A stretch of DNA of 64,000 nucleotides from Nemertoderma westbladi. Lineage: Eukaryota > Animalia > Xenacoelomorpha. Both the position numbers and the translations under genes were made by a program. The first letter of the stretch is position 1; every line of letters starts with the position of its first letter. The stretch covers positions 1 to 64,000 of the forward strand of contig JAUCBJ010000321.1 in the NCBI GenBank assembly GCA_032718475.1, in the 5' to 3' direction. Shown one piece after another: positions 1-55,938 of the stretch. Under the pieces are notes generated by a model. It saw only the letters and a program-made list of their open reading frames with translations, had not been told where the DNA came from and did not search any database.

Positions 1-172
1 GTAATAAACACGAATATATTGCACTATTCTACAAAATAATCGCTAAAATAACATTCTACTGAATAAAATTAAAGAAAACGATTATAATAGAATTACATAG
101 TAATACATACATAAATATAAAAATAATAAAATAATATAAAATAATAGAGTCACACACCCACTCCATATGTTG

Positions 173-21875: not shown

Positions 21876-22116
21876 TCATTTGTGTTCCCTAAACATATAC
21901 AGTAGAGTATTTTTATAGACTTTTTGGGCAATAACAAGATAATATACAGTAGAACATAAAAAATTTAGTTTTGTTTGATTGCCAATTTCTTTTGGATTGA
22001 TCCCCTTTTTTGGCTAGATTGACTGGAATATAATATTTAATCCTAATGTATTATTACATTACTTATTACATAACTTATTACATTACTTATTTAAAATTAT
22101 GTTGATTATGTTACAG

Positions 22117-30624: not shown

Positions 30625-31877
30625 TTGATGATGGGGTGATGATAACTCCACCTACTGGCTCCAGAAGTCGAGGAAATCCTGCCAAGTACCTAACTGATCT
30701 AGACGTTGCTGATGACTTAGGAGTACTCTCAGAATCACTAGAGGGAGCCCAACGGCTCCTCAGCTCATTAGAACATGCTGCTTCTAGTGTTGGTCTTTTT
30801 ATTAACTCCAGAAAGACCAAAATTTGACAGTTAACTTTGAAAGTCATCAGCAAGTCTCTGATCGGATGAGCATAAGCTCAAAGGATGGTATGCTTGAGCA
30901 TGTGGACGACTTCTGTTACCTGGTATCATGGATCCGGAAGTCTGGTGAGGACCTTCGAATACGTAAGGCAAAGGCATGGGCAGCCTTGGATAGGCTTTCC
31001 AGGATTTAGAAGTCACCGAGAATTAATCGGAAACTTAAGGTTCGATTATTTAGAGCAGCAGTAGTTCCAGTACTCCTCTATGGGAGTCCATGCTGGGCTC
31101 TAACTGCTGATGACACCAAATCTCTGGATGGCACATTCACAAGAATGCTACGCCGGGTTCATCGCCGAGTACAATGCACACATCCATTTGAAAGTCATCA
31201 GCAAGTCTCTGATCGGATGAGCATAAGCTCAAAGGATGGTATGCTTGAGCATGTGGACGACTTCTGTTACCTGGTATCATGGATCCGGAAGTCTGGTGAG
31301 GACCTTCGAATACGTAAGGCAAAGGCATGGGCAGCCTTGGATAGGCTTTCCAGGATTTAGAAGTCACCGAGAATTAATCGGAAACTTAAGGTTCGATTAT
31401 TTAGAGCAGCAGTAGTTCCAGTACTCCTCTATGGGAGTCCATGCTGGGCTCTAACTGCTGATGACACCAAATCTCTGGATGGCACATTCACAAGAATGCT
31501 ACGCCGGGTTCATCGCCGAGTACAATGCACACATCTCCAACCAGACACTATATAACATTGGAGGTGTCTCATTGGTTCCATACCAAGCTTGACACAAGAA
31601 CAAAATCGCCTCCGCTTTGCAGGACATTGCTTTCGCCGTGGAGACCAGCCAGTGCATAATCTTGTACTTTGGCAGCCTCATGGAGTGAATAAGCATGGTG
31701 GACAGCCCATGACTTTCTTGAGACGCATCTTAAAGGACACTGGCCTTGAAAATTCGGATAATCTAGTAAATGTCATGGGTGATAGGGAGTTGTGGCGGCG
31801 CAATTTTGTCGACAAGCAGGTACAGCATTCTTAAAAATGCAGCTGCAATGCAGCATGCCGATCCTAGTAGTAGTAGT
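30625..31877 (+). mobile_element. 5'-truncated RTE-like LINE with internal 351-bp tandem duplication
   Basis: RT C-terminal motifs DLDVADD, VDDFCYL, KVRLFRAAV..VLLYGS..W, RLRFAGHCFR; tail gccgatcctagtagtagtag. Confidence 0.9.
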
Positions 31878-33365
31878 CGGAAATAAAAAGCGGGCCCGGA
31901 GCAACGTACAGTAATTGTGGAAAATCCGGGAGGCCCCCTTTATATTTTATGTGAAATAATTACTTGAATTACTTACACCAATTGTCAAAAAACTGTTTTA
32001 TTAACATTGGAGTGAAGGGGATGTCCCTTCCCTGCTTTGCGCCCTCACTCAACTCGGCTATCCGAGTCAGTTGTCAGCTTGATATGCAGGAAGCCAGATT
32101 TCAGATAACCAATAGACTTATAGAATCAACTCATCTTTACATCAAACTGGTCCACCAATTGTTAAATTATTTTAATGTTCTGGAATGAATATTTACGAAG
32201 TTGTCTCGTTTTAATCAACATGAAGGGATCCGAATAACAAGGTGATGGTTTAACTACTGTAGTCTAAGTTAAGAAAATTGCCCAGGGGGCCATTTCCGGG
32301 CCTCCTGGGCATCTCCCGGGCCCGGAGATTTTGCCCCCCTCCTCTCGGGAGCGCTGCCCCCCCCCCCCCCCCCCCCTCCCCACTATCTGCCAAAAATATA
32401 TAAAGCAACGTGTCTTTCTATTATTTGAATTTCATTGGCTATGGAGTAGTATGGAACCTTTTAGGATGATCTACCTATGGATGGAGGGAAATTTGAAAAA
32501 GTAGGTAAAGAGCTAAATCACTCCTACCATAATATAGTGATACAGCTGGATAGGCCTAGCAGCCCTGCAGTCTCAGAATCTCTAGCCTAGCATACATACA
32601 CTAGTACACATAACTACAGACGAGGACCGGTATGTTTTCATATCTATATTTACCACACATCCATACATCTGATCTATGTACAATTTGTTATTTATAAAAT
32701 ATACAATTTTATTATACAATATACAATTTTGTTATAAAATATACAATTTTATTATACAATATACAATTTGGTTCTACTTCATGTCAGATAGGGAGTGGGG
32801 GGGGGGGGGGGGGGGGGGGCTGGTCTCAATAAAAATTCATCCCTCACCAGGGGAAATTCGACGCAAATAATAGCTGTTTACTCTCAAAAATAAAACTGTA
32901 ACCTGTTCTATTGTAGGTATTTAGTTTATTGTTTTGGTTAAAATAACGTGCCACTCTAACCTGCTCCTTTTCCTAAATTGAGAATTTAACATTGAGGCGG
33001 GATATTAATTCGCCAAGATGGGATTTGCGTCCAGTCACCCCCTCCCCTGTCTCACATCAGTACTGGCACATTTAACCAAAACAATATAGGCCCTACTAAA
33101 CTTTACTTGTTGATATGCGACCAATTTGCGGTGGAGAACACTTTTTAGTCAATGTGCGCCACTATTCGCGTTATATGAATTTCAGTGTTTGACAGAGGAC
33201 ATAGATACAAAGATTACAGTATTTATTTATAATAATATTATAATTTTTTCTTATAATACACAGCAGTAATTATTGATTTATTATTGTAATATTATGTTGA
33301 CTGCGTACCACCGGTACCTCAGCGCTCGGTTGATGATGCACTGATACAGTTTGCTAGTTTTGGAT

Positions 33366-34061
33366 ATGACTTACAACGCTTTTGTCGCCAGTCGTAAAAC
33401 ATGGTTGGGGTCCGTACTAAACAACGGAATGGGCCGATATGTTCCGCAGTGTTCTAGAATAACTTTACGATTCAGTCAGAACGGCGGTGGTAGTAAAGGA
33501 ATTCGTGATTACATACAGAACGAAATGGTTGAGTTTGCTAAAGCGAATCCTTCTATTGTGGTTTATCTAGACCCCCGGTTTACCCACTGTCCCCTAATAA
33601 TCGGGGAATTTATGAACGGCACGACAAGAGAAATACTCGCTAATAAGTTTACACTCAAACACGTTGCAGAAACGCTTTACTTAATGCGAGGGATGTCTGG
33701 ACTAGAAGTTCTACGAACAATTAAACCTAATCGATCAAACTCCCCGTCTATACAGGGACAGTGGCATCCGTTCGCGTGGCTACCGGTACCGGGGGGGCGG
33801 GCTGACTGGCCGGAGTTGGATGTCGGCCCGTCCCGCTCCGTGGAACGAGTTGGGATATCTCCGGACCACCTCGGGGCTGCAGTAGAGACCCCGCTTCGCT
33901 CCAATCCCGAGAACGTCTCCAAGGGATCCAGGGATCGCAGTAGGGATTGGGATCCGGCCAGTAGAGATCCAGATTATGCCGTTAATGTGATTCACACAAA
34001 GAGGACGACAGACACGAAACAGTATTGGAGGAAAATAGGAAAGACAAAGAGGATGAAGTAA
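33366..34061 (+). CDS. MRPL43: Mitochondrial ribosomal protein L43 (mL43), intronless
   Basis: NGMGRYVPQCSRITLRFS..GGGSKGIRDYI...FAKANPSIVVY...GEFMNG...PSIQGQWHPF; ATG at 33366. Confidence 0.93.
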   Translation: MTYNAFVASRKTWLGSVLNNGMGRYVPQCSRITLRFSQNGGGSKGIRDYIQNEMVEFAKANPSIVVYLDPRFTHCPLIIGEFMNGTTREILANKFTLKHVAETLYLMRGMSGLEVLRTIKPNRSNSPSIQGQWHPFAWLPVPGGRADWPELDVGPSRSVERVGISPDHLGAAVETPLRSNPENVSKGSRDRSRDWDPASRDPDYAVNVIHTKRTTDTKQYWRKIGKTKRMK

Positions 34062-35770: not shown

Positions 35771-36284
35771 ACCAATAACACCAAATACAATACTAAATGT
35801 ACAGGCCAATACAATGCTGTAATGTCCTCTAAAGTTGTAAAGTTGTAAATAACAACTCGCTGTTAATACTAACGGCGTTGAGGAATGTTACAATTTTGGA
35901 ATAAAGTATATAACATAAATCGTATATACTGTAGCTGCTATAATTTATAAACATTACTTACTTCTGATTGGTTGTCAATGCTGGGAATGCCAGCTTTCAA
36001 CTTTCAACTTTAAGAAAGATAGAACATAGGACGGGTGCATTTTGAAAGTCCCCATAGGCTACAATATGTTATATCTTTTAGTTGAAAGTTGAAAATTGAA
36101 ATTGGTGTGATAATATGGTTTATTTATTAAATAGAATAAAATAGCCTCGCACAGTTGCAAAACCATGTAACTTTTGAACGCCTGTATCTCAGATATTTTA
36201 CGACGAAATTCAGATTGTGTTACATATTTGGAATCCTTGCACGGCACGGTCAGGTATTCTAGGTCATTGATCAAGAAAATTTGC

Positions 36285-38160
36285 CACCTCCATGCAGCAT
36301 AAAGGAGGTGCCACCTGTGGCTGCATAGACCCTTTCACTAGGGCAAATCTGGTCCGGTAACTAGGACCCCCTTCGTTCTGGGATAAGGACGCCCTTGGTC
36401 CTGGATTAAGGACCCATATACTTGGCTGCAGGGGTATATGGCCTGGCCAGGCAGATGGTGATCTACCAATGGCTGGTCAGGAGTAGAGTATTCTCATGTC
36501 CACTCTGAGTGCACTTCACTGCGACCTGCACCTGGCAGCAGGGGTAGGCCTACAGCGCATGGTCCAGCAAATGAGCTGCACAGCCAATGGTGGGTCATGT
36601 GCGTCAGAGTAGGTATGGGTGATGGGCCTCATATCTGACTCCACTGCGACACCCACCCTGTGGAATGGCAAACCAGGGTGTCCTTTCTGACCCAAACCCT
36701 GGGTCACCAGGGAGGCCAGATTGTGAGGGGGAGAGGGATTCTGGAGTTGGAGGCTACTCTCATGTTCCACCCCGACCAACTAAGCCATTGGTGAATCTGA
36801 GGCAAGTCACTAGACTAGCCTCACTTAACACCCTAACACTCAGGTGAGCTGACTGCCTTGGCAGATAAGCTTTCTCTTAGTGCATTAGCGGAGTGGTAAT
36901 TCAAGAGCACCGAATGCAGACTGGACAGACTGATGAGGTTCTGATTAAGGACATGGGGGGTGGTTGGCGACTCGCCCTCGCATCAGCAGATGATAGTGGC
37001 AATGGTGGAATTGGTCTATTGCTGAATCCAACTGCACATGCAGCATTGGAATCTCATTAATAGAACTAAACAATAGAATTCTATTAAATCGTATCAGGGA
37101 TCCCATTGAGAGACTGCTCCGTGGAAACCAGAATGGGTTCCGTAAAGGTCGTGGGACCACGGAGCCCATTTTGGCACTTAGAAGGATAATTTAAGAGTTA
37201 TCAAAAAAGAAAGACAGACATCTGGCTGTTATCTTTGTTGACTTCTTCAAGGCCTTTGATTCAGTCTCTCGCTCACGTATGTTCAGCATACTTTCATTAT
37301 ATTGGATTCCTGGTGAAATTATTGCAGCAATCAGATCAGTATACGATGGTTCGACAACATTTGTGTCTACTGTTGATGGTGAGACAGAACCATTTGAAGT
37401 ATTATGGGGAGTCTTCCAAGGAGACACACTTGCGCCATTCTTGTTCCTAATTGTGGTTGACTAATGTTCTACACATGTCCTTAGATCATCATAATGATGA
37501 TGGGGTGATGATAACTCCACCTACTGGTTCCAGAAGTCGAGGAAATCCTGCCAAGTACCTAACTGATCTTGACTTTGCTGATGACTTAGGAGTACTCTCA
37601 GAATCACTAGACGGAGCCCAACGGCTCCTTAGCTCTTTAGAACAGACTGCTTCTAGTGTTGGTCTTTTTATTAACTCCAAAAAGACCAAAATTTTGACAG
37701 TTAACTTTGAAAGTCCTCAGCAAGTCTCTGACCGGATGAGCATAAGCTCAAAGGATGGTATACTTGAGCATGTGGACGACTTCTGTTACCTGGGATCCGG
37801 AAGTCAGGTGAGGACCTTCGTATACGTAAGGGAAAAGCATGGGCATCCTTGAATAGGCTTTCCAGGATTTGGAAGTCACAGAGAATTAATCGAAAACTTA
37901 AGGTCCGATTATTTAGAGCAGCAGTAGTTACAGTACGCCTCTATGGGAGTCCATGCTGGGCTCTAACTGCTGAGGACACCAAATCTTTGGATGGCACATT
38001 CACAAGAATGCTACGCCGTTTTCATTGTGTCAAGTACAATGCACACATCTTCAACCAGCCACTATATAACATTGGAGATGTCTCATTGGTTTCCCCAAGC
38101 GTGACACTGGATCAAAGTCGCCTCCGCTTTGCAGGACATTGCTTTCGCCGTGAGGACCAG
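36285..38160 (+). mobile_element. RTE-like LINE with GC-rich 5' UTR, internally deleted and frameshifted
   Basis: APE start (LASLNTLTL, VVIQEHR); RT motifs QNGFRKGR, FVDFFKAFDS, GVFQGDTLAPFLF, DLDFADD; same family as 30625-31877; 5' boundary approximate. Confidence 0.88.
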
Positions 38161-39953
38161 GGGACTGGTGCAATATCTCAGGAGATACTTTTTTTAAAGG
38201 CTTGTAACTAAAGATTGAAATAAAAAATAGGGGGGGGGGGATGTGTAATAGAATTACTGTACGACACTATATTCCGGGGCATGGCGTTGTTGTATGTATA
38301 AAACGATACAATTATCCCAGTTCAATAACTTCTCAAATTAGCACGAAATTCCGTAACGATCTGGTTTGAAATTCCGTAACGATACCAATAAAGCTGTAAC
38401 TCCAAATTGCTCAGTAAATCTGCTTAATCTTTACCATGACGGGCATTTTGAACATCTCTTCTTACGCGCAATATGTTTAGTTAAAATTCAAAACTCAATA
38501 ATTCGCAGAACTTTCACTTTAAAAAAATTCCAAAAACCTCTTGTCTTTTTTTGTTTAATTCCGTGTGTAATTCTTATCAGAATAATTTTTCGCCAAGGAA
38601 AGGAACAGGTTGCAGAGACAGGTGGGGGAAGTTATGAACGCCCATGTGAAGAATACCAGGATTTCACTTTTCGGTCGACTTTTTATTGGAATTTTATATA
38701 TGAAGATTTTATATTTTTTTAAATTTATCTTTATTAAGTGTTTTATTGAGCTTATTACTGTCGTATCTGTACATACTGTATACTAATTAGTTTATTGTTT
38801 TGGTTAGATTTCAGCCCTTCTGGCCTTCTGTAAACTTTGTTTTTGGTGAAAACCTGGTATTCTTCACATGGGGGTACCTTCAAGGTGAAATATAACGGCA
38901 GAAAGTCTGGTATTCTTCACATGGGCCGTTATGAACATTGTATAGTTCAATTGAATTCGAAATCTCCAAGAAAAATGCTTTATGCCAATGTGGCTTCATT
39001 GGTTAGCGACTCTGGTGAAGCCTAAAACGCGTATAGCGCTCGATCAACCAGCGACCCAGTGACGTGCTTCCTCATTATTTACATTTCTGAACAAAATGTT
39101 ATAACATAGTTTTTAAGCCATGCCAATAATATTAATATCTACTGTATCAAGGCCTAACTCCTTTGTCTTGACTATGTGGTAAATATATAAGTTATATCGG
39201 GTCAGGTCTCAGGTGTATTGCGAACAGTCTGGTTAGAGTTTCTTAATTGGATGGAAATTAAGTAGATCTCGGAGGGGAATGATTACTTGTTTTAAATACT
39301 TCGTCAGCTGATTTAATACGTACTGCCAAAGTCAATGTTCGTTGCCTGGCACCATATACAACTGTCCGCTAAATCAACTATTCTGATAACATAGGCATAC
39401 AGTGTACTGCTGTAGGCCTAATATTGTACCCGGTATCGGTAACGCCATGGCCAAGGTACTACTGCTGTACTCTAGTTGTACCCTAGTACCCAAGCATGTA
39501 TGTATAATATTGATAGATGTTAGGCCCTACAACTACAGACAGCAGTTATTACAGCCGTAATAGTTAATTAAATCTAAATTACAACAAATTGAGCAGCAAG
39601 AACAGTAGTTTAGAGATCAGTTACAGCAGTACGGTAGCGGTGGGTAGGTCTACGCCTCGCATACAGTAAATGCACGTCATTCATCACTAACCCAGAATTT
39701 AAAGGCCCTTTTAAGTAAACCTTTGAGGTTTGCGATATTGATTTAGTTCCACCACAATACTACCGGTACACGTGTATGTCTGAATTTATTCACCAACGAT
39801 CAACGACTAACGACACTGTTCAGCAATCTGTATTTATAGTTCAGTAGTTCACTTGCTCGTTTTAAGTAGCCGGCAACATTGTGGCCCACTACCGTAGTGT
39901 AGCGGCGCTAGTTTACGCGAAATTGTTATACTCTCTATCTGTTCATTATATTT

Positions 39954-40715
39954 ATGGCGTCAATTAACCCGCTTTCCAACCCAAAAGGCGTCCAGCTGCT
40001 ATGCGAACTCTGTAAGAAACCAGCTTACCTACAATGCACGCGGTGTCGAGTTGCGTACTACTGTAGCTCAGAACACCAAAGGATTGACTATGTCGGCATC
40101 CACGAGAAGATATGCCAGTTGCTGATCCCGCTCCGACAGACAGGAGAGCCTTTCCTACAATCGGAGGAAGAGAGAGAGAACCGCAGACTCGCGTTGCTTA
40201 CCCGCAAACAGCATATGATCGACCTTACGCGAACCACAGGTCAGAAACTCCTGTTCCAGGGATCCTTCACTGAGGCTGTCCCGGCAGCTCTACAGTCGCT
40301 TGCGTTCAGCATCGACGTCTACGGACTGACTAGCGTCGAGTTGGTTCCTTCCTACCTGATCCTCGGTGAGGCGTCTATCGGCCTGGGACGGCTGGAACAG
40401 GCCGAGGAGTATCTCTCTCAGGCCCAGTGGACCGTCCTAAAATCTATCGACTGCGGGAACTTCTTTAAATCCCGTCTCTACCGCATTCTCGGTCTCCTCT
40501 ACTCAACCAAGGGGGATTGCGACGAGGCGCTTAGGAACTTTGCCGACGACGTCTTCCACGCTTCAGAGGAATTTGGTACCGACGATATTCGCACATCCGG
40601 TGGATATTACCATATGGCAAATGTGTTCTGGAAGTTGGAACAACCGGAAACCGCAAACAGTTTGTATCAACACGTTACTGAAATTTGGGCTGGTCATTTA
40701 CGTCGAATGGTAAAG
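39954..40715 (+). CDS. ZMYND12: ZMYND12 exon 1 (MYND finger + TPR-like repeats)
   Basis: INPLSNPKG..LLCELCKKPAYLQCTRCRVAYYC..EHQRID..GIHEKICQLLIPLR; AVPAALQSL; ELVPSYLILGEASIGLG; donor at 40716 (or 40710, same frame). Confidence 0.93.
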
Positions 40716-40805
40716 GTTGGTCAATTAATATTAGAGAGTAGAGGAATCCGGATGAGATTTACAAACTTCCATTGTATTTATTTTCCCAATTTTCTACCTT
40801 GGCAG

Positions 40806-40976
40806 ATACGATTACAGACTCCTGCGACACCCAAAGGCGTCGGACCCGAAGGCTCCGACAATGGGGTTGAGAAGCAGTTGGATGAGATGCTTGACGAAGC
40901 CCAAGAGGCGGAGGCAGTGCAAGTTCTCTCCCACATATACAATCAGAGACGGGACGATACCGACACAAAAGCCGAT
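40806..40976 (+). CDS. ZMYND12: ZMYND12 exon 2
   Basis: cttggcag|ATA CGA; LDEAQEAEAVQVL conserved; ends GCC GAT|gttagt. Confidence 0.85.
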
Positions 40977-41490
40977 GTTAGTAACCCAAACTACTCAGTG
41001 AGGGGGGCTGTAAAGGGGCGAAACACAACTGAAAAGCACTGTCACTTTAACCTGCTTCTTTCCCACAATATTAAATATGAAACAAATGCACTACTGTAAT
41101 ACCTACGACTGTATAATAGACTTCATGTTTTAATTAAATTTAATGGAATATCTTATTTATTACTTTACTAATTCTCACACCGCGCGGGGGTGTATCTTTA
41201 CTTTAATTTAAAAAATTAACTAAAAAAATATCCTCGCACAAATGCAACTTTCGAACGCCAATATTCGCCCTATTTTGCAACGAAATCGAGATTGTGTTTC
41301 ATATTTGGAGTCCTTGCGTGGCCAGGATTCCGAACAATGACCTACTACAATATTATTATTATAATTAGTTATATTTTAATATATCTTAAAACTTATGAAT
41401 CCTTCGCTTCATTATCTGTATAAAGCGCTATTTTCTCTGTATTTTCATTATGTGGTTCGAATTCATTTTATTTTATTTATGCTGAACAGC

Positions 41491-44400
41491 AATTTGTCAC
41501 TATCTCGCTGCAGAGGTTATGATGTTAATTTGCCACTATCTCGCTACAGGTAATCATGTTAATTTGCCACTATCTTGCTACAGATAATGATGTTAATTTG
41601 CCACTATCTCGCTACAGGTAATAATGTTAATTTGCCACTATCTCGCTGTGGGTAATGATGTTAATTTGCCACTATCTCGCTACAGGTAATGATGTTAATT
41701 TGCCACTATCTCGCTACAGGTAATCATGTTAATTTGCCACTATCTCGCTACAGGTAATCATGTTAATTTGCCACTATCTTGCTACAGGTAATGATGTTAA
41801 TTTGCCACTATCTCGCTACAGGTAATAATGTTAATTTGCCACTATCTCGCTGTGGGTAATGATGTTAATTTGCCACTATCTCGCTACAGGTAATGATGTT
41901 AATTTGCCACTATCTCGCTACAGGTAATCATGTTAATTTGCCACTATCTTGCTACAGGTAATCATGTTAATTTGCCACTATCTCGCTACAGGTAATAATG
42001 TTAATTTGCCACTATCTCGCTGTGGGTAATGATGTTAATTTGCCACTATCTCGCTACAGGTAATGATGTTAATTTGCCACTATCTCGCTACCGGTAATCA
42101 TGTTAATTTGCCACTATCTCGCTACAGGTAATCATGTTAATTTGCCACTATCTGGGCTACAGGTAATCATGTTAATTTGCCACTATCTCGCTGTAGGTTA
42201 TGATGTTAATTTGCCATATCTCGCTACAGGTAATCATGTCAATTTGCCACTATCTCGCTACAGGTAATCATGTTAATTTGCCACTATCTTGCTACAGGTA
42301 ATGATGTTAATTTGACACTATCTCGCTGTGGGTAATGATGTTAATTTGCCACTATCCCGCTACAGTTTATGATGTTTATTTGCCACTATCTTGCTATTAT
42401 CTTGCTACGGGTAATGATGTTAATTTTCCACTATCTTGCTACAGGTAATGATGTTAATTTGCCACTATCCCGCTACAGGTTATGATGTTAATTTGCCACT
42501 ATCTCGCTGTAGGTAATGATGTTAATTTGCCACTATCTCGCTACAGGTTATGATGTTAATTTGCCACTATCTGGGATACAGGTAATGATGTTAATTTGCC
42601 ACTATCTGGGCTACAGGTAATCAGGTTAATTTGCCACTATCTCGCTACAGGTAATCAGGTTAATTTGCCACTATCTCGCTGTAGGTAATGATGTTAATTT
42701 GCCACTATCTCGCTACAGGTAATCATGTTAATTTGCCACTATCTTGCTATTATCTTGCTACGGGTAATGATGTTAATTTGCCACTATCTTGCTACAGGTA
42801 ATGATGTTAATTTGCCACTATCTCGCTACTGGTAATGATGTTAATTTGCCACCATATCTCTACAGGTTATGATGTTAATTTGCCACTATCCTGCTACAGG
42901 TTATGATGTTAATTTGCCACTATCTTGCTACGGGTAATGATGTTAATTTGCCACTATCTTGCTACAGGTAATGATGTTAATTTGCCACTATCTCGCTACA
43001 GGTAATCATGTTAATTTGCCACCATCTCTCTACAGGTTATGATATTAATTTGCCACTATCTCGCTACAAGTAATAATGATGTTAATTTGCCACTATCTCG
43101 CTACAGGTAATGATGTTAATTTGCCATTATCTTATTACAGTTTATGATGTTAATTTGCCACTATCTCGCTACAGGTAATAATGATGTTAATTTGCCACTA
43201 TCTCGCTACAGGTAATAATGATGTTAATTTGCCACTATCCCACTACAGGTTATGATGTTAATTTGCCACTATCCCGCTACAGGTTATGATGTTAATTTGT
43301 CATTATCTTGCTACAGGTTATGATGTTAATTTGCCACTATCTGGGCTACTGGTAATCATGTTAATTTGCCACTATCTCGCTGTAGGTAATGATGTTAATT
43401 TGCCACCATCTCTCTACAGGTTATGATGTTAATTTGCCACTATCTCGCTGTAGGTAATGATGTTAATTTGCCACTATCTCGCTACAGGTTATGATGTTAA
43501 TTTGCCACTATCCCGCTACAGGTTATGATGTTAATTTGCCACTATTCCGCTACTGGTTTTGATGTTAATTTGCCACTATCCCGCTACAGGTAATAATGAT
43601 GTTAATTTGCCACTATCTCGCTGTAGGTAATGATGTTAATTTGCCACTATCTCGCTGTAGGTAATGATGTTAATTTGCCACTATCCGCTACAGGTTATGA
43701 TGTTAATTTGCCACTATCCCGCTACAGGTTTTGATGTTAATTTGCCTCTATCCCGCTACAGGTAATAATGATGTTAATTTGCCACTATCTTGCTACAGGT
43801 AATGATGTTAATTTGCCACTATCTCGCTACAGGTTATGATGTTAATTTGCCTCTATCCCGCTACAGGTTTTGATGTTAATTTGCCTCTATCCCGCTACAG
43901 GTTTTGATGTTAATTTGCCACTATCCCGCTACAGGTTTTGATGTTAATTTGCCTCTATCCCGCTACAGGTAATAATGATGTTAATTTGCCACTATCTTGC
44001 TACAGGTAATGATGTTAATTTGCCACTATCCCGCTACAGGATATGATGTTAATTTGCCACTATCCCGCTACAGGTTATGATGTTAATTTGCCACTATCCC
44101 GCTACAGGTTATGATGTTAATTTGCCACTATCCCGCTACTGGTTTTGATGTTAATTTGCCACTATCCCGCTACAGGTAATAATGATGTTAATTTGCCACT
44201 ATCTCGCTGTAGGTAATGATGTTAATTTGCCACTATCTCGCTGTAGGTAATCATGTTAATTTGTCACTATCCCGCTACAGGTTATGATGTTAATTTGCCA
44301 CTATCTCGCTGTAGGTAATGATGTTAATTTGCCACTATCTCGCTGCAGGTAATGATGTTAATTTGCCACTATCCCGCTACAGGTTATGATGTTAATTTGC

Positions 44401-46780
44401 CACTATCCCGCTACAGGTTATGATGTTAATTTGCCACTATCCCGCTACAGGTTTTGATGTTAATTTGCCACTATCCCGCTACAGGTAATAATGATGTTAA
44501 TTTGCCACTATCCCGCTACATGTTATGATGTTAATTTGCCACTATCCCGCTACAGGTTTTGATGTTAATTTGCCACTATCCCGCTACAGGTTATAATGAT
44601 GTTAATTTGCCACTATCCCGCTACAGGTTATGATGTTAATTTGCCACTATCCCGCTACAGGTTTTGATGTTAATTTGCCACTATCCCGCTACAGGTAATA
44701 ATGATGTTAATTTGCCACTATCTCGCTGTAGGTAATGATGTTAATTTGCCACTATCTCGCTGTAGGTAATGATGTTAATTTGCCACTATCTCGCTGTAGG
44801 TAATGATGTTAATTTGCCACTATCTCGCTACAGGTTATGATGTTAATTTGCCACTATCCCGCTACAGGTTATGATGTTAATTTGCCACTATCCCGCTACT
44901 GGTTTTGATGTTAATTTGCCACTATCCCGCTACAGGTTATGATGTTAATTTGCCACTATCCCGCTACAGGTTTTGATGTTAATTTGCCACTATCCCGCTA
45001 CAGGTAGTAATGATGTTAATTTGCCACTATCCCGCTACAGGTAATAATGATGTTAATTTGCCACTATCTCGCTGTAGGTAATGATGTTAATTTGCCACTA
45101 TCTCGCTGTAGGTACTGATGTTAATTTGCCACTATCCCGCTACAGGTTATGATGTTAATTTGCCACTATCCCGCTACAGGTTTTGATGTTAATTTGCCAC
45201 TATCCCGCTACAGGTAGTAATGATGTTAATTTGCCACTATCTTGCTACAGGTAATGATGTTAATTTGCCACTATCCCGCTACAGGTTATGATGTTAATTT
45301 GTCACTATCCCGCTACAGGTTATGATGTTAATTTGCCACTATCTCGCTGTAGGTAATGATGTTAATTTGCCACTATCTCGCTGCAGGTAATGATGTTAAT
45401 TTGCCACTATCCCGCTACAGGTTATGATGTTAATTTGCCACTATCCCGCTACAGGTAATAATGATGTTAATTTGCCACTATCCCGCTACATGTTATGATG
45501 TTAATTTGCCACTATCCCGCTACAGGTTTTGATGTTAATTTGCCACTATCCCGCTACAGGTTTTGATGTTAATTTGCCACTATCCCGCTACAGGTAATAA
45601 TGATGTTAATTTGCCACTATCTTGCTACAGGTAATGATGTTAATTTGCCACTATCCCGCTACAGGTTATGATGTTAATTTGTCACTATCCCGCTACAGGT
45701 TATGATGTTAATTTGCCACTATCTCGCTGTAGGTAATGATGTTAATTTGCCACTATCTCGCTGCAGGTAATGATGTTAATTTGCCACTCTCCCGCTACAG
45801 GTTATTATGTTAATTTGCCACTATCCCGCTACAGGTTATGATGTTAATTTGCCATTATCCCGCTACAGGTTATGATGTTAATTTGCCACTATCCCGCTAC
45901 AGGTTATGATGTTAATTTGCCACTATCCCGCTACAGGTAATCATGTTAATTTGCCACTATCTCGCTGCAGGTAATCATGTTAATTTGCCATTATCTTGCT
46001 ACAGGTTATGATGTTAATTTGCCACTATCTCGCTGTAGGTAATGATGTTAATTTGCCACTATCCCGCTACAGGTAATCATGTTAATTTGCCATCATTTCT
46101 CTACAGGTTATGATGTTAATTTGACACTATCTCGCTGTAGGTAATGATGTTAATTTGCCACTATCTCGCTACAGGTTATGATGTTAATTTGCCACTATCT
46201 TGCTACAGGTGATCATGTTAATTTGCCACTATCTCGCTACAGGTAATGATGTTAATTTGCCACTATCTCGCTGCAGGTAATCATGTTAATTTGCCATTAT
46301 CTTGCTACAGGTTATGATGTTAATTTGCCACTATCTCGCTGTAGGTAATGATGTTAATTTGCCACTATCCCGCTACAGGTAATCATGTTAATTTGCCATC
46401 ATTTCTCTACAGGTTATGATGTTAATTTGCCACTATCTCGCTGAAGGTAATGATGTTAATTTGACACTATCCCGCTACAGGTTATGATGTTAATTTGCCA
46501 CTATCTCGCTGTAGGTAATGATGTTAATTTGCCACTATCCCGCTACAGGTAATCATGTTAATTTGCCATCATTTCTCTACAGGTTATGATGTTAATTTGC
46601 CACTATCTCGTTGTAGGTAATGATGTTAATTTGACACTATCCCGCTACAGGTTATCATGTTAATTTGCCACTATCTCTCTACAGGTTATGATGTTAATTT
46701 GCCACTATCTCTCTACAGGTTATGATGTTAATTTGCCACTATCTTGCTACAGGTTATGATGTTAATTTGCCATTGTCTCG
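41491..46780 (+). repeat. 34-bp intronic satellite (gtWatgatgttaatttgccactatcYcgctacag)n, roughly 155 copies
   Basis: Direct reading; runs without a break into the final ZMYND12 exon. Confidence 0.97.
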
Positions 46781-46980
46781 CGATGCTACGGAACATCCAG
46801 AGAATCGACGTAGAATCCTTGGCTTTCGCTCGAGAGGCTCGTGGATACGCTGAGACGATAACCGGTAACCAAGGGAGACGATTGGTTACAGATGTTATTG
46901 AGTTTGCCAGCATGTTGGAGCCCTACAAGCCGCCAACGCCAATCGCTGGGGATGAGACAGATGTTATAGGCGCCGCCTAG
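46753..46980 (+). CDS. ZMYND12: ZMYND12 terminal exon
   Basis: ctacag|GTT ATG ATG TTA; VMMLICHCLAMLRNI...; phase 0 matches exon 2; TAG then AATAAA near 46999. Confidence 0.8.
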   Translation, partial: VMMLICHCLAMLRNIQRIDVESLAFAREARGYAETITGNQGRRLVTDVIEFASMLEPYKPPTPIAGDETDVIGAA

Positions 46981-47252
46981 AGAACAGATCAGAAAGTTAA
47001 TAAACCATATTTTTATCGCAAAAAAACATAATTTGATTTAAAATATCAATTATCATTGTAAATATTTGTATATATTGTAGAATGTTTATAACATTGTAAT
47101 TGTATTATATATTGTATAAATTGTTTATAATATTATAATTGTATATATTGAAATATATTTATTGTAATTATTTAACGAACCATCACCAAATTAATATTTA
47201 ACTTTTAAATTTATTGACATTATTTTAATTACTTTTGTTTCGCATTGCTTGT

Positions 47253-49644
47253 TATATTAGGTGTATCGTATACCTCCGATATAAAAAAACATTGGCGCTA
47301 TAATATTAGGTGTATCGTATATATACCTCCGATATAAAAAAACATTGGCGCTATAATATTAGGTGTATCGTATAACTCCAATATAAAAAAACATTGGCGC
47401 TATAATATTAGGTGTATCGTATACCTCCGATATAAAAAAACATTGGCGCTATAATATTAGGTGTATCGTATACCTCCGATATAAAAAAACATTGGCGCTA
47501 TAATATTAGGTGTATCGTATACCTCCGATATAAAAAAACATTGGCGCTATAATATTAGGTGTATCGTATACCTCCGATATAAAAAAACATTGGCGCTATA
47601 ATATTAGGTGTATCGTATACCTCCGATATAAAAAAAACATTGGCGCTATAATATTAGGTGTATCGTATACCTCCGATATAAAAAAAACATTGGCGCTATA
47701 ATATTAGGTGTATCGTATACCTCCGATATAAAAAAAACATTGGCGCTATAATATTAGGTGTATCGTATACCTCCGATATAAAAAAAAACATTGGCGCTAT
47801 AATATTAGGTGTATCGTATACCTCCGATATAAAAAAACATTGGCGCTATAATATTAGGTGTATCGTATACCTCCGATATAAAAAAAACATTGGCGCTATA
47901 ATATTAGGTGTATCGTATACCTCCGATATAAAAAAAAACATTGGCGCTATAATATTAGGTGTATCGTATACCTCCGATATAAAAAAACATTGGCGCTATA
48001 ATATTAGGTGTATCGTATACCTCCGATATAAAAAAAACATTGGCGCTATAATATTAGGTGTATCGTATACCTCCGATATAAAAAAACATTGGCGCTATAA
48101 TATTAGGTGTATCGTATAACTCCGATATAAAAAAAACATTGGCGCTTTAAAATTAGGTGTATCGTATACCTCCCATATAAAAAAACCATTGGCGCTATAA
48201 TATTGGGTGTATCGTATACCTCCGATATAAAAAAAAACATTGGCGCTATAATATTAGGTGTATCGTATACCTCCGATATAAAAAAACATTGGCGCTATAA
48301 TATTAGGTGTATCGTATACCTCCGATATAAAAAAAACATTGGCGCTATAATATTAGGTGTATCGTATACCTCCGATATAAAAAAACATTGGCGCTATAAT
48401 ATTAGGTGTATCGTATACCTCCGATATAAAAAAAACATTGGCGCTATAATATTAGGTGTATCATATACCTCCGATATAAAAAAAACATTGGCGCTATAAT
48501 ATTAGGTGTATCGTATACCTCCGATATAAAAAAAACATTGGCGCTATAATATTAGGTGTATCGTATAACTCCAATATAAAAAAAACATTGGCGCTATAAT
48601 ATTAGGTGTATCGTATACCTCCGATATAAAAAAACATTGGCGCTATAATATTAGGTGTATCGTATACCTCCGATATAAAAAAACATTGGCGCTATAATAT
48701 TAGGTGTATCGTATAACTCCGATATAAAAAAAACATTGGCGCTATAATATTAGGTGTATCGTATAACTCCGATATAAAAAAAACATTGGCGCTATAATAT
48801 TAGGTGTATCGTATACCTCTGATATAAAAAAACATTGGCGCTATAATATTAGGTGTATCGTATACCTCCGATATAAAAAAACATTGGCGCTATAATATTA
48901 GGTGTATCGTATACCTCCGATATAAAAAAAACATTGGCGCTATAATATTAGGTGTATCGTATACCTCCGATATAAAAAAACATTGGCGCTATAATATTAG
49001 GTGTATCGTATACCTCCGATATAAAAAAACATTGGCGCTATAATATTAGGTGTATCGTATACCTCCGATATAAAAAAAACATTGGCGCTATAATATTAGG
49101 TGTATCATATACCTCCGATATAAAAAAACATTGGCGCTATAATATTAGGTGTATCATATACCTCCGATATAAAAAAACATTGGTGCTATAATATTAGGTG
49201 TATCGTATACCTCCGATATAAAAAAAAACATTGGCGCTATAATATTAGGTGTATCGTATACCTCCGATATAAAAAAACATTGGTGCTATAATATTAGGTG
49301 TATCGTATACCTCCGATATAAAAAAACATTGGCGCTATAATATTAGGTGTATCGTATACCTCCGATATAAAAAAACATTGGCGCTATAATATTAGGTGTA
49401 TCGTATACCTCCGATATAAAAAAAACATTGGCGCTATAATATTAGGTGTATCATATACCTCCGATATAAAAAAACATTGGCGCTATAATATTAGGTGTAT
49501 CATATACCTCCGATATAAAAAAACATTGGTGCTATAATATTAGGTGTATCGTATACCTCCGATATAAAAAAAAACATTGGCGCTATAATATTAGGTGTAT
49601 CGTATACCTCCGATATAAAAAAAACATTGGCGCTATAATATTAG
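47253..49644. repeat. 49-51-bp satellite, ~48 copies
   Basis: gtgtatcgtatacctccgatat(a)ncattggcgctataatattag. Confidence 0.97.
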
Positions 49645-50023: not shown

Positions 50024-50423
50024 TAAAGTATCAACCAACCTGCTCCTTCCCCTTATATGGTGGGGTGGTCATTGGCTTTTGAAATTTTCCTATTCATTTA
50101 GAGGAAATTTTTATAAAAATTCCAAATTTTAAAACCGTTTATCAAGATCTGTACCCGTATGCTAAGCTCGCTGACTTTCGTGGCTCGTCCCACAACCATC
50201 CAGTTGTTTTCCATTTTCACACCATTGTTTATTATCCAATTTTCTGGTAAAGAAAATATAACCTTTCTAATCAATGTCATTTTTAATTCATTTTCCATAT
50301 TGAAATCCACAGAATATTAATTTATAAAATCTATGGACAAAAAGGGAAATTTATACACTTACACAAAGGTGCTTAGTTTAAAGAAAGGTTGGGCATAAAT
50401 GACAGGCAGAAAGACTGCGTAAG

Positions 50424-50983
50424 AGCCAAAACGGATTTCGACCAAGTAGATCAACAATAGCTCAGATACTTGCACTACGGAGATTGATTGAAGGAATTAA
50501 GTCAAAGAATCTCCCCGCAGTCATGACTTTTGTGGACTTCAAGAAGGCATTCGACTCCATCCATAGAGGTAAAATGCTTGAAATCCTAAGAGCTTATGGA
50601 ATACCAGAAGTAATTGTTGCTGGCATTGGATTGTTATATTGTGACACAGAAGCGCAGGTACTCTCACCAGATGGTGAAACTGAGTTTTTCTCAATCCTGG
50701 CTGGCGTACTGCAAGGTGACACATTAGCACCATTACTATTTGTAATTGTGCTGGATTATGCAATGAGGACGGCCACAAAGGGTGAAGATCTGGGATTCAC
50801 ACTTCAAGAACGCAGAAGTAGTAGGAAAGCGTAGTCGTGGACGACCTGCCATAACATATATAGTCAACTTGAAAGGGATACTGAACTTGGGAGAAACGAA
50901 ATTGCGACAACTATGGAGAGTCGGGAAGCCTGGAAGGATCTCATTTCCACTGTCCGAGTTCGCTCGACCTAGTAGTAGTAGTA
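50424..50983 (+). mobile_element. Internally deleted RTE-like LINE fragment (second family)
   Basis: FVDFKKAFDSI, GVLQGDTLAPLLFVIVLDY joined directly to the 3' end (RGRP...) and (TAG)n tail. Confidence 0.88.
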
Positions 50984-51137: not shown

Positions 51138-54100
51138 ACATTGCTGCCACTTACACCAAGGTATTTAGAGATACATTGCCGCCACTTACACTAAGGAAGG
51201 TATTTAGAGATACATTGCTGCCACTTACACCAAGGTATTTAGAGATACATTGCTGTCACTTACACTAAGGTATTTAGAGATACATTGCTGTCACTTACAC
51301 TAAGGTATTTAGAGATACATTGCTGCCACTTACACAAAGGTATTTAGAGATACATTGCTGCCACTTACACCAAGGTATTTAGAGATACATTGCTGTCACT
51401 TACACTAAGGTATTTAGAGATACATTGCTGCCACTTGCACAAAGGTATTTAGAGATACATTGCCGCCACTTACACTAAGGTATTTAGAGATACATTGCTG
51501 CCACTTACACTAAGGTATTTAGAGATACATTGCTGTCACTTACACTAAGGTATTTACAGATATATTGCTGCCACTTACACTAAGGTATTTAGAGATACAT
51601 TGCTGCCACTTACACAAAGGTATTTAGAGATACATTGCTGCCACTTACACTAAGGTATTTAGAGATACATTGCTGCCACTTACACTAAGGTATTTACAGA
51701 TATATTGCTGCCACTTGCACAAAGGTATTTAGAGATACATTGCCGCCACTTACACAAAGGTATTTAGAGATACATTGCTGTCACTTACACTAAGGTATTT
51801 AGAGATACATTGCTGTCACTTACACTAAGGTATTTAGATATACATTGCTGCCACTTGCACAAAGGTATTTAGAGATACATTGCCGCCACTTACACTAAGG
51901 TATTTAGAGATACATTGCTGCCACTTACACTAAGGTATTTAGAGATACATTGCTGCCACTTGCACAAAGGTATTTAGAGATACATTGCCGCCACTTACAC
52001 TAAGGTATTTAGAGATACATTGCTGCCACTTACACTAAGGTATTTAGAGATACATTGCTGTCACTTACACTAAGGTATTTACAGATATATTGCTGCCACT
52101 TACACTAAGGTATTTAGAGATACATTGCTGCCACTTACACAAAGGTATTTAGAGATACATTGCTGCCACTTACACTAAGGTATTTAGAGATACATTGCTG
52201 CCACTTACACTAAGGTATTTAGAGATACATTGCTGTCACTTACACTAAGGTATTTACAGATATATTGCTGCCACTTACACTAAGGTATTTAGAGATACAT
52301 TGCTGCCACTTACACAAAGGTATTTAGAGATACATTGCTGCCACTTACACTAAGGTATTTAGAGATACATTGCTGTCACTTACACTAAGGTATTTACAGA
52401 TATATTGCTGCCACTTACACTAAGGTATTTAGAGATACATTGCTGCCACTTACACAAAGGTATTTAGAGATACATTGCTGCCACTTACACCAAGGTATTT
52501 AGAGATACATTGCTGTCACTTACACTAAGGTATTTAGAGATACATTGCTGTCACTTACACTAAGGTATTTAGAGATACATTGCTGCCACTTACACAAAGG
52601 TATTTAGAGATACATTGCTGCCACTTACACCAAGGTATTTAGAGATACATTGCTGTCACTTACACTAAGGTATTTAGAGATACATTGCTGCCACTTGCAC
52701 AAAGGTATTTAGAGATACATTGCCGCCACTTACACTAAGGTATTTAGAGATACATTGCTGCCACTTACACTAAGGTATTTAGAGATACATTGCTGTCACT
52801 TACACTAAGGTATTTACAGATATATTGCTGCCACTTACACTAAGGTATTTAGAGATACATTGCTGCCACTTACACAAAGGTATTTAGAGATACATTGCTG
52901 CCACTTACACTAAGGTATTTAGAGATACATTGCTGCCACTTACACTAAGGTATTTAGAGATACATTGCTGTCACTTACACTAAGGTATTTAGAGATACAT
53001 TGCTGCCACTTACACAAAGGTATTTAGAGATACATTGCTGCCACTTACACCAAGGTATTTAGAGATACATTGCTGTCACTTACACTAAGGTATTTAGAGA
53101 TACATTGCTGCCACTTGCACAAAGGTATTTAGAGATACATTGCCGCCACTTACACTAAGGTATTTAGAGATACATTGCTGCCACTTACACTAAGGTATTT
53201 AGAGATACATTGCTGTCACTTACACTAAGGTATTTACAGATATATTGCTGCCACTTACACTAAGGTATTTAGAGATACATTGCTGCCACTTACACAAAGG
53301 TATTTAGAGATACATTGCTGCCACTTACACTAAGGTATTTAGAGATACATTGCTGCCACTTACACTAAGGTATTTACAGATATATTGCTGCCACTTGCAC
53401 AAAGGTATTTAGAGATACATTGCCGCCACTTACACAAAGGTATTTAGAGATACATTGCTGTCACTTACACTAAGGTATTTAGAGATACATTGCTGTCACT
53501 TACACTAAGGTATTTAGAGATACATTGCTGCCACTTGCACAAAGGTATTTAGAGATACATTGCCGCCACTTACACTAAGGTATTTAGAGATACATTGCTG
53601 CCACTTACACAAAGGTATTTAGAGATACATTGCCGCCACTTACACTAAGGTATTTAGAGATACATTGCTGCCACTTACACTAAGGTATTTAGAGATACAT
53701 TGCTGTCACTTACACTAAGGTATTTACAGATATATTGCTGCCACTTACACTAAGGTATTTAGAGATACATTGCTGCCACTTACACAAAGGTATTTAGAGA
53801 TACATTGCTGCCACTTACACTAAGGTATTTAGAGATACATTGCTGCCACTTACACTAAGGTATTTAGAGATACATTGCTGTCACTTACACTAAGGTATTT
53901 ACAGATATATTGCTGCCACTTACACTAAGGTATTTAGAGATACATTGCTGCCACTTACACAAAGGTATTTAGAGATACATTGCTGCCACTTACACTAAGG
54001 TATTTAGAGATACATTGCTGTCACTTACACTAAGGTATTTACAGATATATTGCTGCCACTTACACTAAGGTATTTAGAGATACATTGCTGCCACTTACAC

Positions 54101-55234
54101 AAAGGTATTTAGAGATACATTGCTGCCACTTACACCAAGGTATTTAGAGATACATTGCTGTCACTCACACTAAGGTATTTAGAGATACATTGCTGTCACT
54201 TACACTAAGGTATTTAGAGATACATTGCTGCCACTTACACAAAGGTATTTAGAGATACATTGCTGCCACTTACACCAAGGTATTTAGAGATACATTGCTG
54301 TCACTTACACTAAGGTATTTAGAGATACATTGCTGCCACTTGCACAAAGGTATTTAGAGATACATTGCCGCCACTTACACTAAGGTATTTAGAGATACAT
54401 TGCTGCCACTTACACTAAGGTATTTAGAGATACATTGCTGTCACTTACACTAAGGTATTTACAGATATATTGCTGCCACTTACACTAAGGTATTTAGAGA
54501 TACATTGCTGCCACTTACACAAAGGTATTTAGAGATACATTGCTGCCACTTACACTAAGGTATTTAGAGATACATTGCTGCCACTTACACTAAGGTATTT
54601 AGAGATACATTGCTGTCACTTACACTAAGGTATTTACAGATATATTGCTGCCACTTACACTAAGGTATTTAGAGATACATTGCTGCCACTTACACAAAGG
54701 TATTTAGAGATACATTGCTGCCACTTACACTAAGGTATTTAGAGATACATTGCTGCCACTTACACTAAGGTATTTACAGATATATTGCTGCCACTTACAC
54801 TAAGGTATTTAGAGATACATTGCTGCCACTTACACAAAGGTATTTAGAGATACATTGCTGCCACTTACACTAAGGTATTTAGAGATACATTGCTGCCACT
54901 TACACTATAAGGTATTTATAGATACATTGCTGCCACTTACACTAAGGTATTTAGAGATACATTGCTGCCACTTACACAAAGGTATTTAGAGATACATTGC
55001 TGCCACTTACACTAAGGTATTTAGAGATACATTGCTGCCACTTACACTAAGGTATTTAGAGATACATTGCTGCCACTTACACTAAGGTATTTACAGATAC
55101 ATTGCTGCCACTTGCACAAAGGTATTTAGAGATACATTGCCGCCACTTACACAAAGGTATTTAGAGATACATTGCTGTCACTTACACTAAGGTATTTAGA
55201 GATACATTGCTGTCACTTACACTAAGGTATTTAG
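51138..55234. repeat. 35-bp satellite, ~117 copies
   Basis: tacactaaggtatttagagatacattgctgccact. Confidence 0.97.
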
Positions 55235-55938
55235 AAATATATTACATACAATATGGACTTTAGCGATACAGCAATAAAAATGGATTGATCTGGTTGGATG
55301 ATAAACTTCATATTAATCAATTATACAATAAAGATGTTGAAACTCGGTAATAACTGTAGAAAGTATAATGTAACAAAGATCCTTGGAGATAAAATCCTCA
55401 TAACCTGACGACCTAATATTAATTAATTTCGAAAAACTTCGAAACACTCTACATAAAATTATATTAAATACAACAAATTAATAACATTCGAAGTAATGGT
55501 TGGATATAATACAACTAATTAAGTAACTATAAACAAAAAAAAATATAAATACAAATAAGTAATGAACATTAATCATATCAATACATTTTATAGGTTAATA
55601 TATAACAGATTTATAGAGAAAATATTAAATTAAAAGGAAAACTCGATTCGGAATATAAATAATTATTACAGGGACACCATGGTACCATGGAAACCCTGAT
55701 GGACACACCAGCAACGGGATAAATGATATTCTAATTAAAATGTATCTAAACAATGATTGTTGAACAATAATTAATTAAAGAAACTAACCTTAGTCAAATA
55801 TATGAATTACTTGGAAAAAAATAACACAAAACTATAAATAATTGTTGACGATTAAGAATCTGTTGAATTTATTGGGGTAAATTAGAAAACATTTAAACTG
55901 AAAATATTTAAACAATTGGAACATTTTATAATAAATAT

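What the first reader, a model, noticed from the sequence alone, without database searches (positions are those of the whole stretch)
41491..46790. Satellite built from the ZMYND12 splice junction: ~155 tandem AG|GT sites, candidate self-removing (recursively spliced) array
Seen: the 34-bp unit is the first bases of the last exon (GTTATGATGTTAATTTGCCA) fused to the intron end (CTATCTCGCTACAG). The array starts at intronic aatttgtcactatctcgctgcag (41491) and ends in exonic aatttgccattgtctcgc, a microhomology that could have seeded slippage. Only the last acceptor (46752) gives an open frame of the length I recall for ZMYND12; retaining units shifts frame into stops. Because the exon begins with GT, use of any earlier AG recreates a donor, and many units carry GTAATG/GTAATC, a better donor than the exon's GTTATG. 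Known: AG|GT ratchet points mediate recursive splicing. Inference: the gene tolerates 5.3 kb of decoy acceptors because the array splices itself out stepwise.
Basis: partly seen in the sequence, partly recalled or inferred. Interest (0 to 1): 0.82.

Follow-up and report, generated by a model that had tools for sequence, protein, structure and literature searches.

The report
Splice-acceptor "mirage" repeat in ZMYND12
The start of the last exon of an animal's ZMYND12 gene, with a splice signal in front of it, is repeated about 153 times (5.3 kb) inside the preceding intron; this kind of repeat is already known from lancelets and human genes, and the cell likely skips all the copies in one step rather than removing them one by one.

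Summary
The array is real: 41491-46781, 34-bp unit, about 153 copies, 133 of 153 junctions with intact AG|GT. Only the last acceptor (46752) restores a full-length ZMYND12. It fits a known class, the lancelet 'mirage' minisatellites spanning intron-exon borders (donor-side relatives in human F7, CBS).

A recursive ratchet from exon 2 is unlikely. Exon 2 ends in GAT and no unit has +5G, so every regenerated donor fits neither major 5' splice-site class. One-unit steps are under the ~60-nt intron minimum, the intron is only 5.8 kb, and AG|GT positions are not protected from mutation. Best reading: one-step splicing to the exon-adjacent acceptor, chosen by downstream exon sequence. Untouched CAG|GT sites could still splice to each other inside the array.

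The intron position is absent from 3 of 3 informative homologous loci. No RNA run was listed, so splicing is untested. The scan has already noted many such arrays, some far larger, in other genes of this genome (unchecked notes).

The parts
39954..40715 (+). ZMYND12 exon 1 (coding part; zf-MYND and TPR repeats)
   Evidence: Pfam zf-MYND and TPR_12 above cut-off; best homologs 60-61% identical
40716..40805 (+). Intron 1, 90 nt, donor AAG|GTTGGT; in frame and stop-free
   Evidence: Inferred: removal gives a gap-free alignment with homologs; sites listed
40806..40976 (+). ZMYND12 exon 2, ending GAT; native donor GTTAGT carries +4A +5G +6T
   Evidence: Alignment with 14 homologs
40977..41476 (+). 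Unique 5' part of intron 2; holds a fragment of a dispersed repeat at 41242-41317
   Evidence: blastn against the window: 79% over 76 nt to 36165-36240, E 4e-13
41477..41515 (+).
   Evidence: 7-of-8 match to exon nt 2-9; such a match occurs in 10 of 4,831 non-coding control windows
41491..46781 (+). 34-bp minisatellite, about 153 units, 133 intact AG|GT; each unit = exon-3 nt 1-29 plus a 5-nt acceptor end; branch-point-like TTAAT with its A 22 nt before the AG end
46751..46752 (+). Last acceptor AG, the only one that restores full-length ZMYND12
   Evidence: 1 of 146 AGs tested gives 386 aa and profile coverage 2-360 of 365
46753..46980 (+). ZMYND12 exon 3 coding part to the stop codon; GC 0.51 and rich in GAA/GAG, unlike the array
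46999..47004 (+). AATAAA, likely poly(A) signal of the terminal exon, 247 nt after the last acceptor
   Evidence: Only A(A/T)TAAA match in 46981-47260; function inferred

Best explanation
This is a 34-bp minisatellite of about 153 copies made from the start of ZMYND12's last exon plus its splice acceptor (a 'mirage'-type repeat), which is likely a tolerated by-product of repeat expansion and is likely removed as part of one ordinary 5.8-kb intron, exon 2 joining the last, exon-adjacent acceptor. Shown: the repeat, its derivation from the exon, and that only the last AG gives the conserved protein. Inferred: the decoys are passed over because only the last copy is followed by real exon sequence (purine-rich, enhancer-like, GC 52%) and lies next to the poly(A) signal; the acceptor motifs themselves do not differ. 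Predicted: some leakage to the one or two copies nearest the exon, giving C-terminally truncated protein. Slippage or unequal exchange would have built and homogenised the array.
For: Same anatomy as amphioxus BflGb6 (intron 3' end plus exon 5' part in tandem), where RT-PCR suggested normal splicing (PMC3087553, passages; PMC3902484, passages). In human donor-side cases the exon-adjacent site is used alone (F7, lamin B2, PDGF) or with two pseudo-sites (6-16, CBS) (PMC1557585, abstract, Introduction and passages). The last acceptor is not a better motif: 126 of 135 other AG|G sites have at least as many pyrimidines, 10 of 134 are identical over the 23 nt upstream and 34 of 134 identical from -3 to +20. 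What differs lies downstream: GAA/GAG 7.0 per 100 nt in exon +21..+120 against 0.0 in the array (a crude enhancer proxy). No protection of AG|GT: 8 variant alleles over 4 positions against 1.03 per other position, P(random 4 positions <= observed) = 0.98. AGGT-rich satellites are common here: 5 of 11 other long arrays examined carry 22-117 AGGT on the + strand, two of them inside introns of a CLCA-like gene, 98 and 988 nt from its donors. Structure does not hide the decoys: array folds are weaker than shuffles, z +1.6 and +1.9.
Against: No transcript of this gene was seen, so one-step splicing is assumed from analogues. The first decoy is transcribed 5,237 nt before the true acceptor, a harder case than the donor-side human examples, and published mirages that I could read have 2-25 extra copies, not about 150. 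Tandem duplications of acceptors were spliced at the proximal copy in one classic study and the opposite in another (PMC1557585, passage). Intact CAG|GT sites fit the AG//GUNNN class, and 2 of 5 inferred real donors in this window lack +5G, so internal donors could work. The enhancer proxy is only a trinucleotide count. An unchecked scan note on another gene of this genome reports splicing from an internal variant copy (e1-10614089).
Confidence: 0.68

Rival explanations
1. Intron-within-intron collapse: untouched CAG|GT sites act as dual-specific splice sites, so an early unit's donor splices to a later unit's acceptor (two or more units apart). Each jump regenerates an acceptor, the array shrinks in one or a few jumps, and exon 2 then joins the remaining acceptor.
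For: 133 of 153 junctions keep AG|GT, most after CAG, which fits the AG//GUNNN donor class; inferred real donors AAG|GTTTTA and TAG|GTAAAT in this window also lack +5G. [quoted passage not shown] A duplicated AGGT segment is spliced in a minigene at about 6-16% (PMC3265369, passages).
Against: No selection to keep AG|GT. Collapse alone leaves the first unit's acceptor in place, so exon-side discrimination is still needed and the route is not required. Only 4 of 1,910 internal acceptor-donor pairs up to 600 nt would be in frame and stop-free if left in the mRNA, so errors are costly.
Confidence: 0.17
2. Recursive ratchet: exon 2 splices to an internal AG, a donor is regenerated, and the step repeats 5' to 3' until the real exon is reached.
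For: AG|GT juxtaposition at 133 of 153 junctions, and +3A at 87 of 153. Internal acceptors are as strong as the true one and are transcribed first.
Against: Regenerated donors have -1T and +5T: 0 of 135 match NN//GURAG and exon 2 ends in GAT, whereas the native donor compensates with +5G. +5 is T in 153 of 153 units. 116 of 134 spacings are under 60 nt. The intron is 5.8 kb, below the lengths described for recursive splicing. AG|GT is not conserved above background. The mature junction itself reads GAT|GTTATG and has to be a poor donor.
Confidence: 0.05
3. The long array is an assembly inflation or a rare, damaging allele; the usual allele has few copies, or this copy of the gene is poorly spliced.
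For: Minisatellites of this type are length-unstable, even somatically (PMC3087553, passage). I could not see raw reads or a second haplotype.
Against: 64 distinct unit types among 153, variants clustered by region, and a longest exact internal repeat of only 191 nt, unlike a copied-out assembly error. All three exons keep an intact, conserved frame. The window has several other arrays of 1-4 kb.
Confidence: 0.07
4. The array is a regulated switch or the gene uses another 3' end: internal acceptors are used on purpose to make a protein lacking the last 50 residues.
For: Use of an internal AG gives a stop in the terminal exon, so exon-junction-dependent decay would not be triggered (inference); products of 334-336 aa keep the MYND finger and TPRs.
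Against: The lost segment is an aligned helix region present in all 14 homologs shown. Nothing in the variant pattern points to selection.
Confidence: 0.03

Closest known systems
Amphioxus 'mirage' minisatellites (globins BflGb6 and BflGb9, Adh3, troponin C, PGBD5); PMC3087553 and PMC3902484, passages read; the Adh3 paper PMC117041 was not held
   Same: Tandem copies of an intron-exon border; BflGb6 is the acceptor-side form, as here. Many but not all copies keep AG/GT. Unit length within the 10-72 bp quoted for Adh3. Concerted evolution with divergent edge copies.
   Different: About 153 copies against 3-6 in BflGb6 and 2-7 in PGBD5 (Adh3 copy numbers not seen). The host is not close to a lancelet: 57% identity to Branchiostoma belcheri ZMYND12, below molluscs and hemichordates. 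At least 29 of 34 unit bases come from the exon, so the pyrimidine tract is recycled coding sequence.
Human boundary-spanning VNTRs: F7 IVS7 (37 bp, 5-9 copies), CBS intron 13 (15-20), 6-16 (25 pseudo-sites), lamin B2, PDGF; PMC1557585, abstract, Introduction and passages
   Same: A minisatellite reiterates a real splice site into the intron; the exon-adjacent site is used, sometimes with two pseudo-sites.
   Different: Those are donor-side, where the true site is transcribed first. Here it is acceptor-side, so over 130 decoys precede the true site by up to 5.2 kb.
Tandem dual-specific splice sites of human UBC; PMC10809524, abstract and passages
   Same: An AGGT in each repeat unit that could serve as donor or acceptor.
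   Different: UBC units are in-frame coding monomers whose internal splicing is seen in RNA. Here units are 34 nt, frame-breaking, intronic, and no RNA was available.
Recursive splicing at ratchet points (Drosophila Ubx, luna; vertebrate RS-exons); PMC8758631, passages of a review
   Same: Juxtaposed AG|GT inside an intron.
   Different: Described in introns over 10 kb with 1-7 sites and segments of about 2-60 kb. Here a 5.8-kb intron, 34-nt spacing, and regenerated donors with neither -1G nor +5G.
Intron gain by tandem duplication (Rogers model; ATP2A1); PMC3265369, passages; mirage-based gain model in PMC3087553
   Same: Intron sequence copies the neighbouring exon; intron position not shared with 3 of 3 informative homologous loci.
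   Different: The first 500 nt of the intron are not exon-like, the ancestral exon has no AGGT at this site, and intron 1 is also at an unshared position with no repeat.

Membership tests
Mirage minisatellite | Head-to-tail repeat of minisatellite length | tested here: met
   Period 34, 153.5 copies
Mirage minisatellite | Unit spans an exon-intron border and the terminal copy holds the authentic border | tested here: met
   Last AG at 46752 alone restores the homologous protein; unit matches exon nt 1-29 at 26 of 29. Gene model is by homology, not RNA.
Mirage minisatellite | Many but not all copies keep AG/GT signals | tested here: met
   133 of 153 intact
Mirage minisatellite | Concerted evolution inside the array, divergent edges | tested here: met
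   Variants cluster by region; degenerate 5' edge copy
Mirage minisatellite | Normal mRNA is still made | not testable with these tools
   No RNA holder listed
Mirage minisatellite | Length polymorphism between alleles | not testable with these tools
   No genome or second haplotype held
Recursive-splicing ratchet points | [quoted passage not shown] | tested here: met
Recursive-splicing ratchet points | A usable donor is regenerated after joining to the upstream exon | tested here: not met
   0 of 135 sites with +5G and exon 2 ends in GAT; classes from PMC11732430. Sequence criterion only.
Recursive-splicing ratchet points | Long intron (over 10 kb) cut into kilobase segments | tested here: not met
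   5,776-nt intron; 116 of 134 spacings under 60 nt; lengths from PMC8758631
Recursive-splicing ratchet points | Site is conserved above its surroundings | tested here: not met
   Within the array only: 8 variant alleles at 4 AG|GT positions against 1.03 per other position. No cross-species test possible.
Recursive-splicing ratchet points | Intermediates and lariats in nascent RNA | not testable with these tools
   One search listed no run
Tandem dual-specific splice sites (UBC type) | AGGT per unit whose donor fits a known class in its genomic context | tested here: met
   CAG|GT or TAG|GT at 133 of 135 AGGT sites fits AG//GUNNN
Tandem dual-specific splice sites (UBC type) | Sites seen used as both donor and acceptor in RNA | not testable with these tools
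Intron gain by tandem duplication | Intron position absent from orthologs | tested here: met
   L014, L016, L017 are continuous across it; L019, L020, L029 too divergent to judge. All are distant, unnamed animals.
Intron gain by tandem duplication | Whole intron derives from flanking exon sequence | tested here: inconclusive
   Array part yes; unit's last 7 nt match exon +33..39 at 6 of 7, but 63 of 1,092 control windows do as well; 40977-41476 shows no exon match

The most novel reading that the evidence does not exclude
A self-made, self-collapsing intron: a tandem duplication of the exon's first 39 bases created the acceptor (and perhaps the intron) from coding sequence, the copy expanded to about 150 units, and the array is now excised in jumps between its own dual-specific AG|GT sites before exon 2 is joined. 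If the same holds for the many similar arrays noted in this genome, this animal would routinely build and remove kilobase introns out of its own splice junctions.
Probability: 0.1. Interest if true: 0.7.

Novelty: new member of a known kind. Interest (0 to 1): 0.3.

Why it matters
As a class it is known and apparently harmless. Its value is as a natural test of 3' splice-site choice: over 130 near-identical acceptors are transcribed up to 5.2 kb before the true one, and the only distinguishing information lies 21 or more bases into the exon and at the poly(A) site. Because all 134 other AGGT sites depart from the real exon by +23, ordinary junction reads can tell which copy was used. It also shows exon codons recycled as the working branch point and pyrimidine tract, which bears on models of intron gain and sliding by duplication.

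Tried and rejected
No whole genome is held for this window, so a genome-wide count of junction arrays and an organism-specific splice-site model were not possible; only 5 inferred introns of the window served as reference (the CLCA-like coordinates printed were one base off and were corrected there). Sequencing runs for 39900-41480, kind rna: no RNA holder listed, so no reads were laid; this is no evidence either way. The protein search (2,036 candidates, best 61%) and the metagenome scan (45 loci, best 69% over the first exon among full-length matches) found no close relative, so the pre-array allele could not be seen. RNA structure as the selector was rejected: the array folds worse than shuffles, and local accessibility of the last site is mixed (internal sites at least as open: 3 of 134 at the AG, 60 at the tract, 124 at the branch region). 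A stronger last acceptor was rejected. Chance microhomology as the seed was rejected (0 of 20,001). A transposon target-site origin of intron 2 was considered from the shared GTTA at the intron and exon starts and dropped: only two of those bases are free to vary. The three arrays in the CLCA-like gene do not touch its exons and are not mirages. Paper searches: 2 papers; 2; 0; 10, listing only; 1: 'recursive splicing' + 'tandem repeat' + 'AGGT'; 5, listing; one then read in passages. None of the listings or passages that I read described a mirage array shown to be recursively spliced; the library lacks most subscription papers. The original Adh3 mirage paper was not held. No supplements were read; those of PMC3087553 hold the mirage alignments.
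Full report
Observation. The sequence at 41491-46781 is a 34-bp minisatellite of 153.5 copies. It divides into 153 units of 64 types, 129 of them 34 nt long. 133 of 153 junction positions keep AG|GT and 20 are broken. Variants cluster by region and the longest exact internal repeat is 191 nt, which looks like a real, turning-over minisatellite rather than an assembly copy-out, although no raw reads were available. The window is rich in such arrays: 76 TRF rows, several of 1-4 kb.

The gene. The upstream frame encodes a MYND finger and TPR repeats. Its best homologs are ZMYND12 proteins of molluscs and hemichordates at 60-61% (that query included the in-frame 90-nt intron 1). With exons 39954-40715 and 40806-40976 fixed, I tried all 146 AGs in 41401-46800 as acceptor. 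Only G=46752 gives 386 aa, covering positions 2-360 of a 365-position profile from 23 homologs and aligning without a gap at the junction; internal sites mostly stop at 334-336 aa.

What the unit is made of. In fact the phased consensus matches exon nt 1-29 at 26 of 29 positions, including the codons of the conserved CHxLAM motif, and a 15-of-18 match like the one at the array's two ends occurred in 0 of 20,001 random intron/exon window pairs. So the supposed intron end is a copy of the exon, and at most 5 nt of the unit are non-exonic. The real acceptor's pyrimidine run and its branch-like TTAAT, 22 nt upstream, are recycled codons. Two weaker hints point to a wholly exonic origin. The unit's last 7 nt match exon +33..39 at 6 of 7, but 63 of 1,092 control windows do too, so this is not significant. 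A degenerate copy of the exon start sits at 41477 behind a T-rich tract with no AG, a match seen in 10 of 4,831 control windows. I searched all 45 fetched loci and printed those with C-terminal hits, leaving out short transcript-like loci among L001-L012. L014, L016 and L017 are continuous across both intron positions of this gene and have introns elsewhere; L019, L020 and L029 were too divergent to judge. Both introns are thus at unshared positions, but intron 1 has no repeat, so the position alone does not prove gain by duplication.

Against the ratchet. [quoted passage not shown] Exon 2 ends in GAT, and its native donor GTTAGT carries the compensating +5G. A donor regenerated at any internal site would read GAT|GT(A/T)AT(G/C): +5 is T in 153 of 153 units and 0 of 135 AGGT sites have +5G. 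It fits neither class. The five inferred real donors of this window follow the rule: four end in G at -1, the two without +5G end in AG, and the one with -1T has +5G (a small sample). 116 of 134 spacings are under 60 nt, about the minimal intron length quoted by PMC3265369 (passages). The intron is 5,776 nt, against over 10 kb and kilobase segments for described recursive splicing (PMC8758631, passages). The four AG|GT positions carry 8 variant alleles against 1.03 per other position, so there is no sign that the sites are being kept; this counts alleles, not independent events. Finally, AGGT in a satellite is unremarkable here: 5 of 11 other long arrays examined carry 22-117 copies on the + strand, two of them within introns of a CLCA-like gene, and a third intronic array there has 29 copies of a T-rich AG.

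How it most likely works. The decoys are as good as the true acceptor by motif: 126 of 135 other AG|G sites have at least as many pyrimidines, and 34 of 134 are identical from -3 to +20. They are not hidden by structure. What differs is downstream: exon +21..+120 has GC 0.52 and 7.0 GAA/GAG per 100 nt against 0.38 and 0.0 in the array, and the only AATAAA lies 247 nt after the last AG. A splicing model for animals and plants finds that exon-side elements within about 80-100 nt separate real from decoy sites (bioRxiv 10.1101/2023.12.29.573658, passages). I therefore infer one-step splicing to the exon-adjacent acceptor by terminal-exon definition, with leakage to the nearest copies (0.68). The main rival is collapse inside the array: untouched CAG|GT sites do fit the AG//GUNNN class, and tandem AGGT sites are used as both donor and acceptor in human UBC (PMC10809524, abstract and passages) (0.17). 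The ratchet gets 0.05, an inflated or damaging allele 0.07, a regulated truncation 0.03. Against my reading: no RNA was seen, the decoys have a 5.2-kb head start, and the published analogues I could read have far fewer copies.

Known relatives. Tandem duplications of intron-exon borders are published as 'mirages' in amphioxus globins, Adh3, troponin C and PGBD5; BflGb6 is the same acceptor-side form, and they are reported not to disturb splicing (PMC3087553, passages; PMC3902484, passages). Human F7, CBS, 6-16, lamin B2 and PDGF carry donor-side versions with 5-25 copies (PMC1557585, abstract, Introduction, passages). All testable mirage features are met; normal splicing and allele length could not be tested. 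My reading was recorded before opening the scan's notes. Those unchecked notes describe donor- and acceptor-side arrays of up to about 2,100 copies in many other genes of this genome, several with transcripts joining the exon-adjacent copy, one with use of an internal variant copy and one suggesting removal in jumps; nothing was listed near this window. I could not verify them and do not count them as evidence.

Verdict. A real and large but known kind of repeat, in a lineage other than lancelets, and apparently routine for this genome. The recursive-splicing reading is disfavoured on sequence grounds. Interest 0.3; new member of a known kind. The boldest reading left open, an intron built from its own exon and removed in internal jumps, has about 0.1 probability.

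Noticed in passing
window 39954-40976: ZMYND12 has lost introns found in homologous loci (L016 has several within the span of exon 1) and has two introns at unshared positions; intron 1 is 90 nt, in frame and stop-free, so retention would only insert 30 residues.
   Followed up: partly
window 13683-22391: Last four exons of a CLCA-like gene (name recalled from resemblance; the Pfam scan of three separate pieces gave no hit). Each of its three introns holds an unrelated minisatellite rich in splice-like motifs, none touching an exon.
   Followed up: yes
window 47254-49644, 51138-55243, 55939-59819: Three more long minisatellites (49, 35 and 41 bp units) between ZMYND12 and the next gene, each with AGGT in nearly every unit; no exon link looked for beyond reading the flanks.
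   Followed up: partly
window 8443-11764: Two adjacent long intronless ORFs (443 and 648 aa) with no Pfam hit. The second has a weak Atlas lead, score 0.82, to a cluster with a 3'-5' exonuclease and CCHC knuckles; possibly an undescribed mobile element.
   Followed up: partly
window 173-5050 (minus): 1,625-aa ORF resembling the gag/protease part of a BEL/Pao retrotransposon (recognised by eye, not tested).
   Followed up: no
window 33345-34061 (+) and 60551-61351 (minus): Apparently single-exon mitochondrial ribosomal protein gene (PF05047) and the last exon of a Rad21/Rec8-like gene (PF04824). The latter's likely acceptor is also followed by GT.
   Followed up: no
window 30567-31834, 37190-38211, 50403-50834, 21200-21900: Several broken LINE-type reverse transcriptase fragments, recognised by eye from the ORF list.
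   Followed up: no
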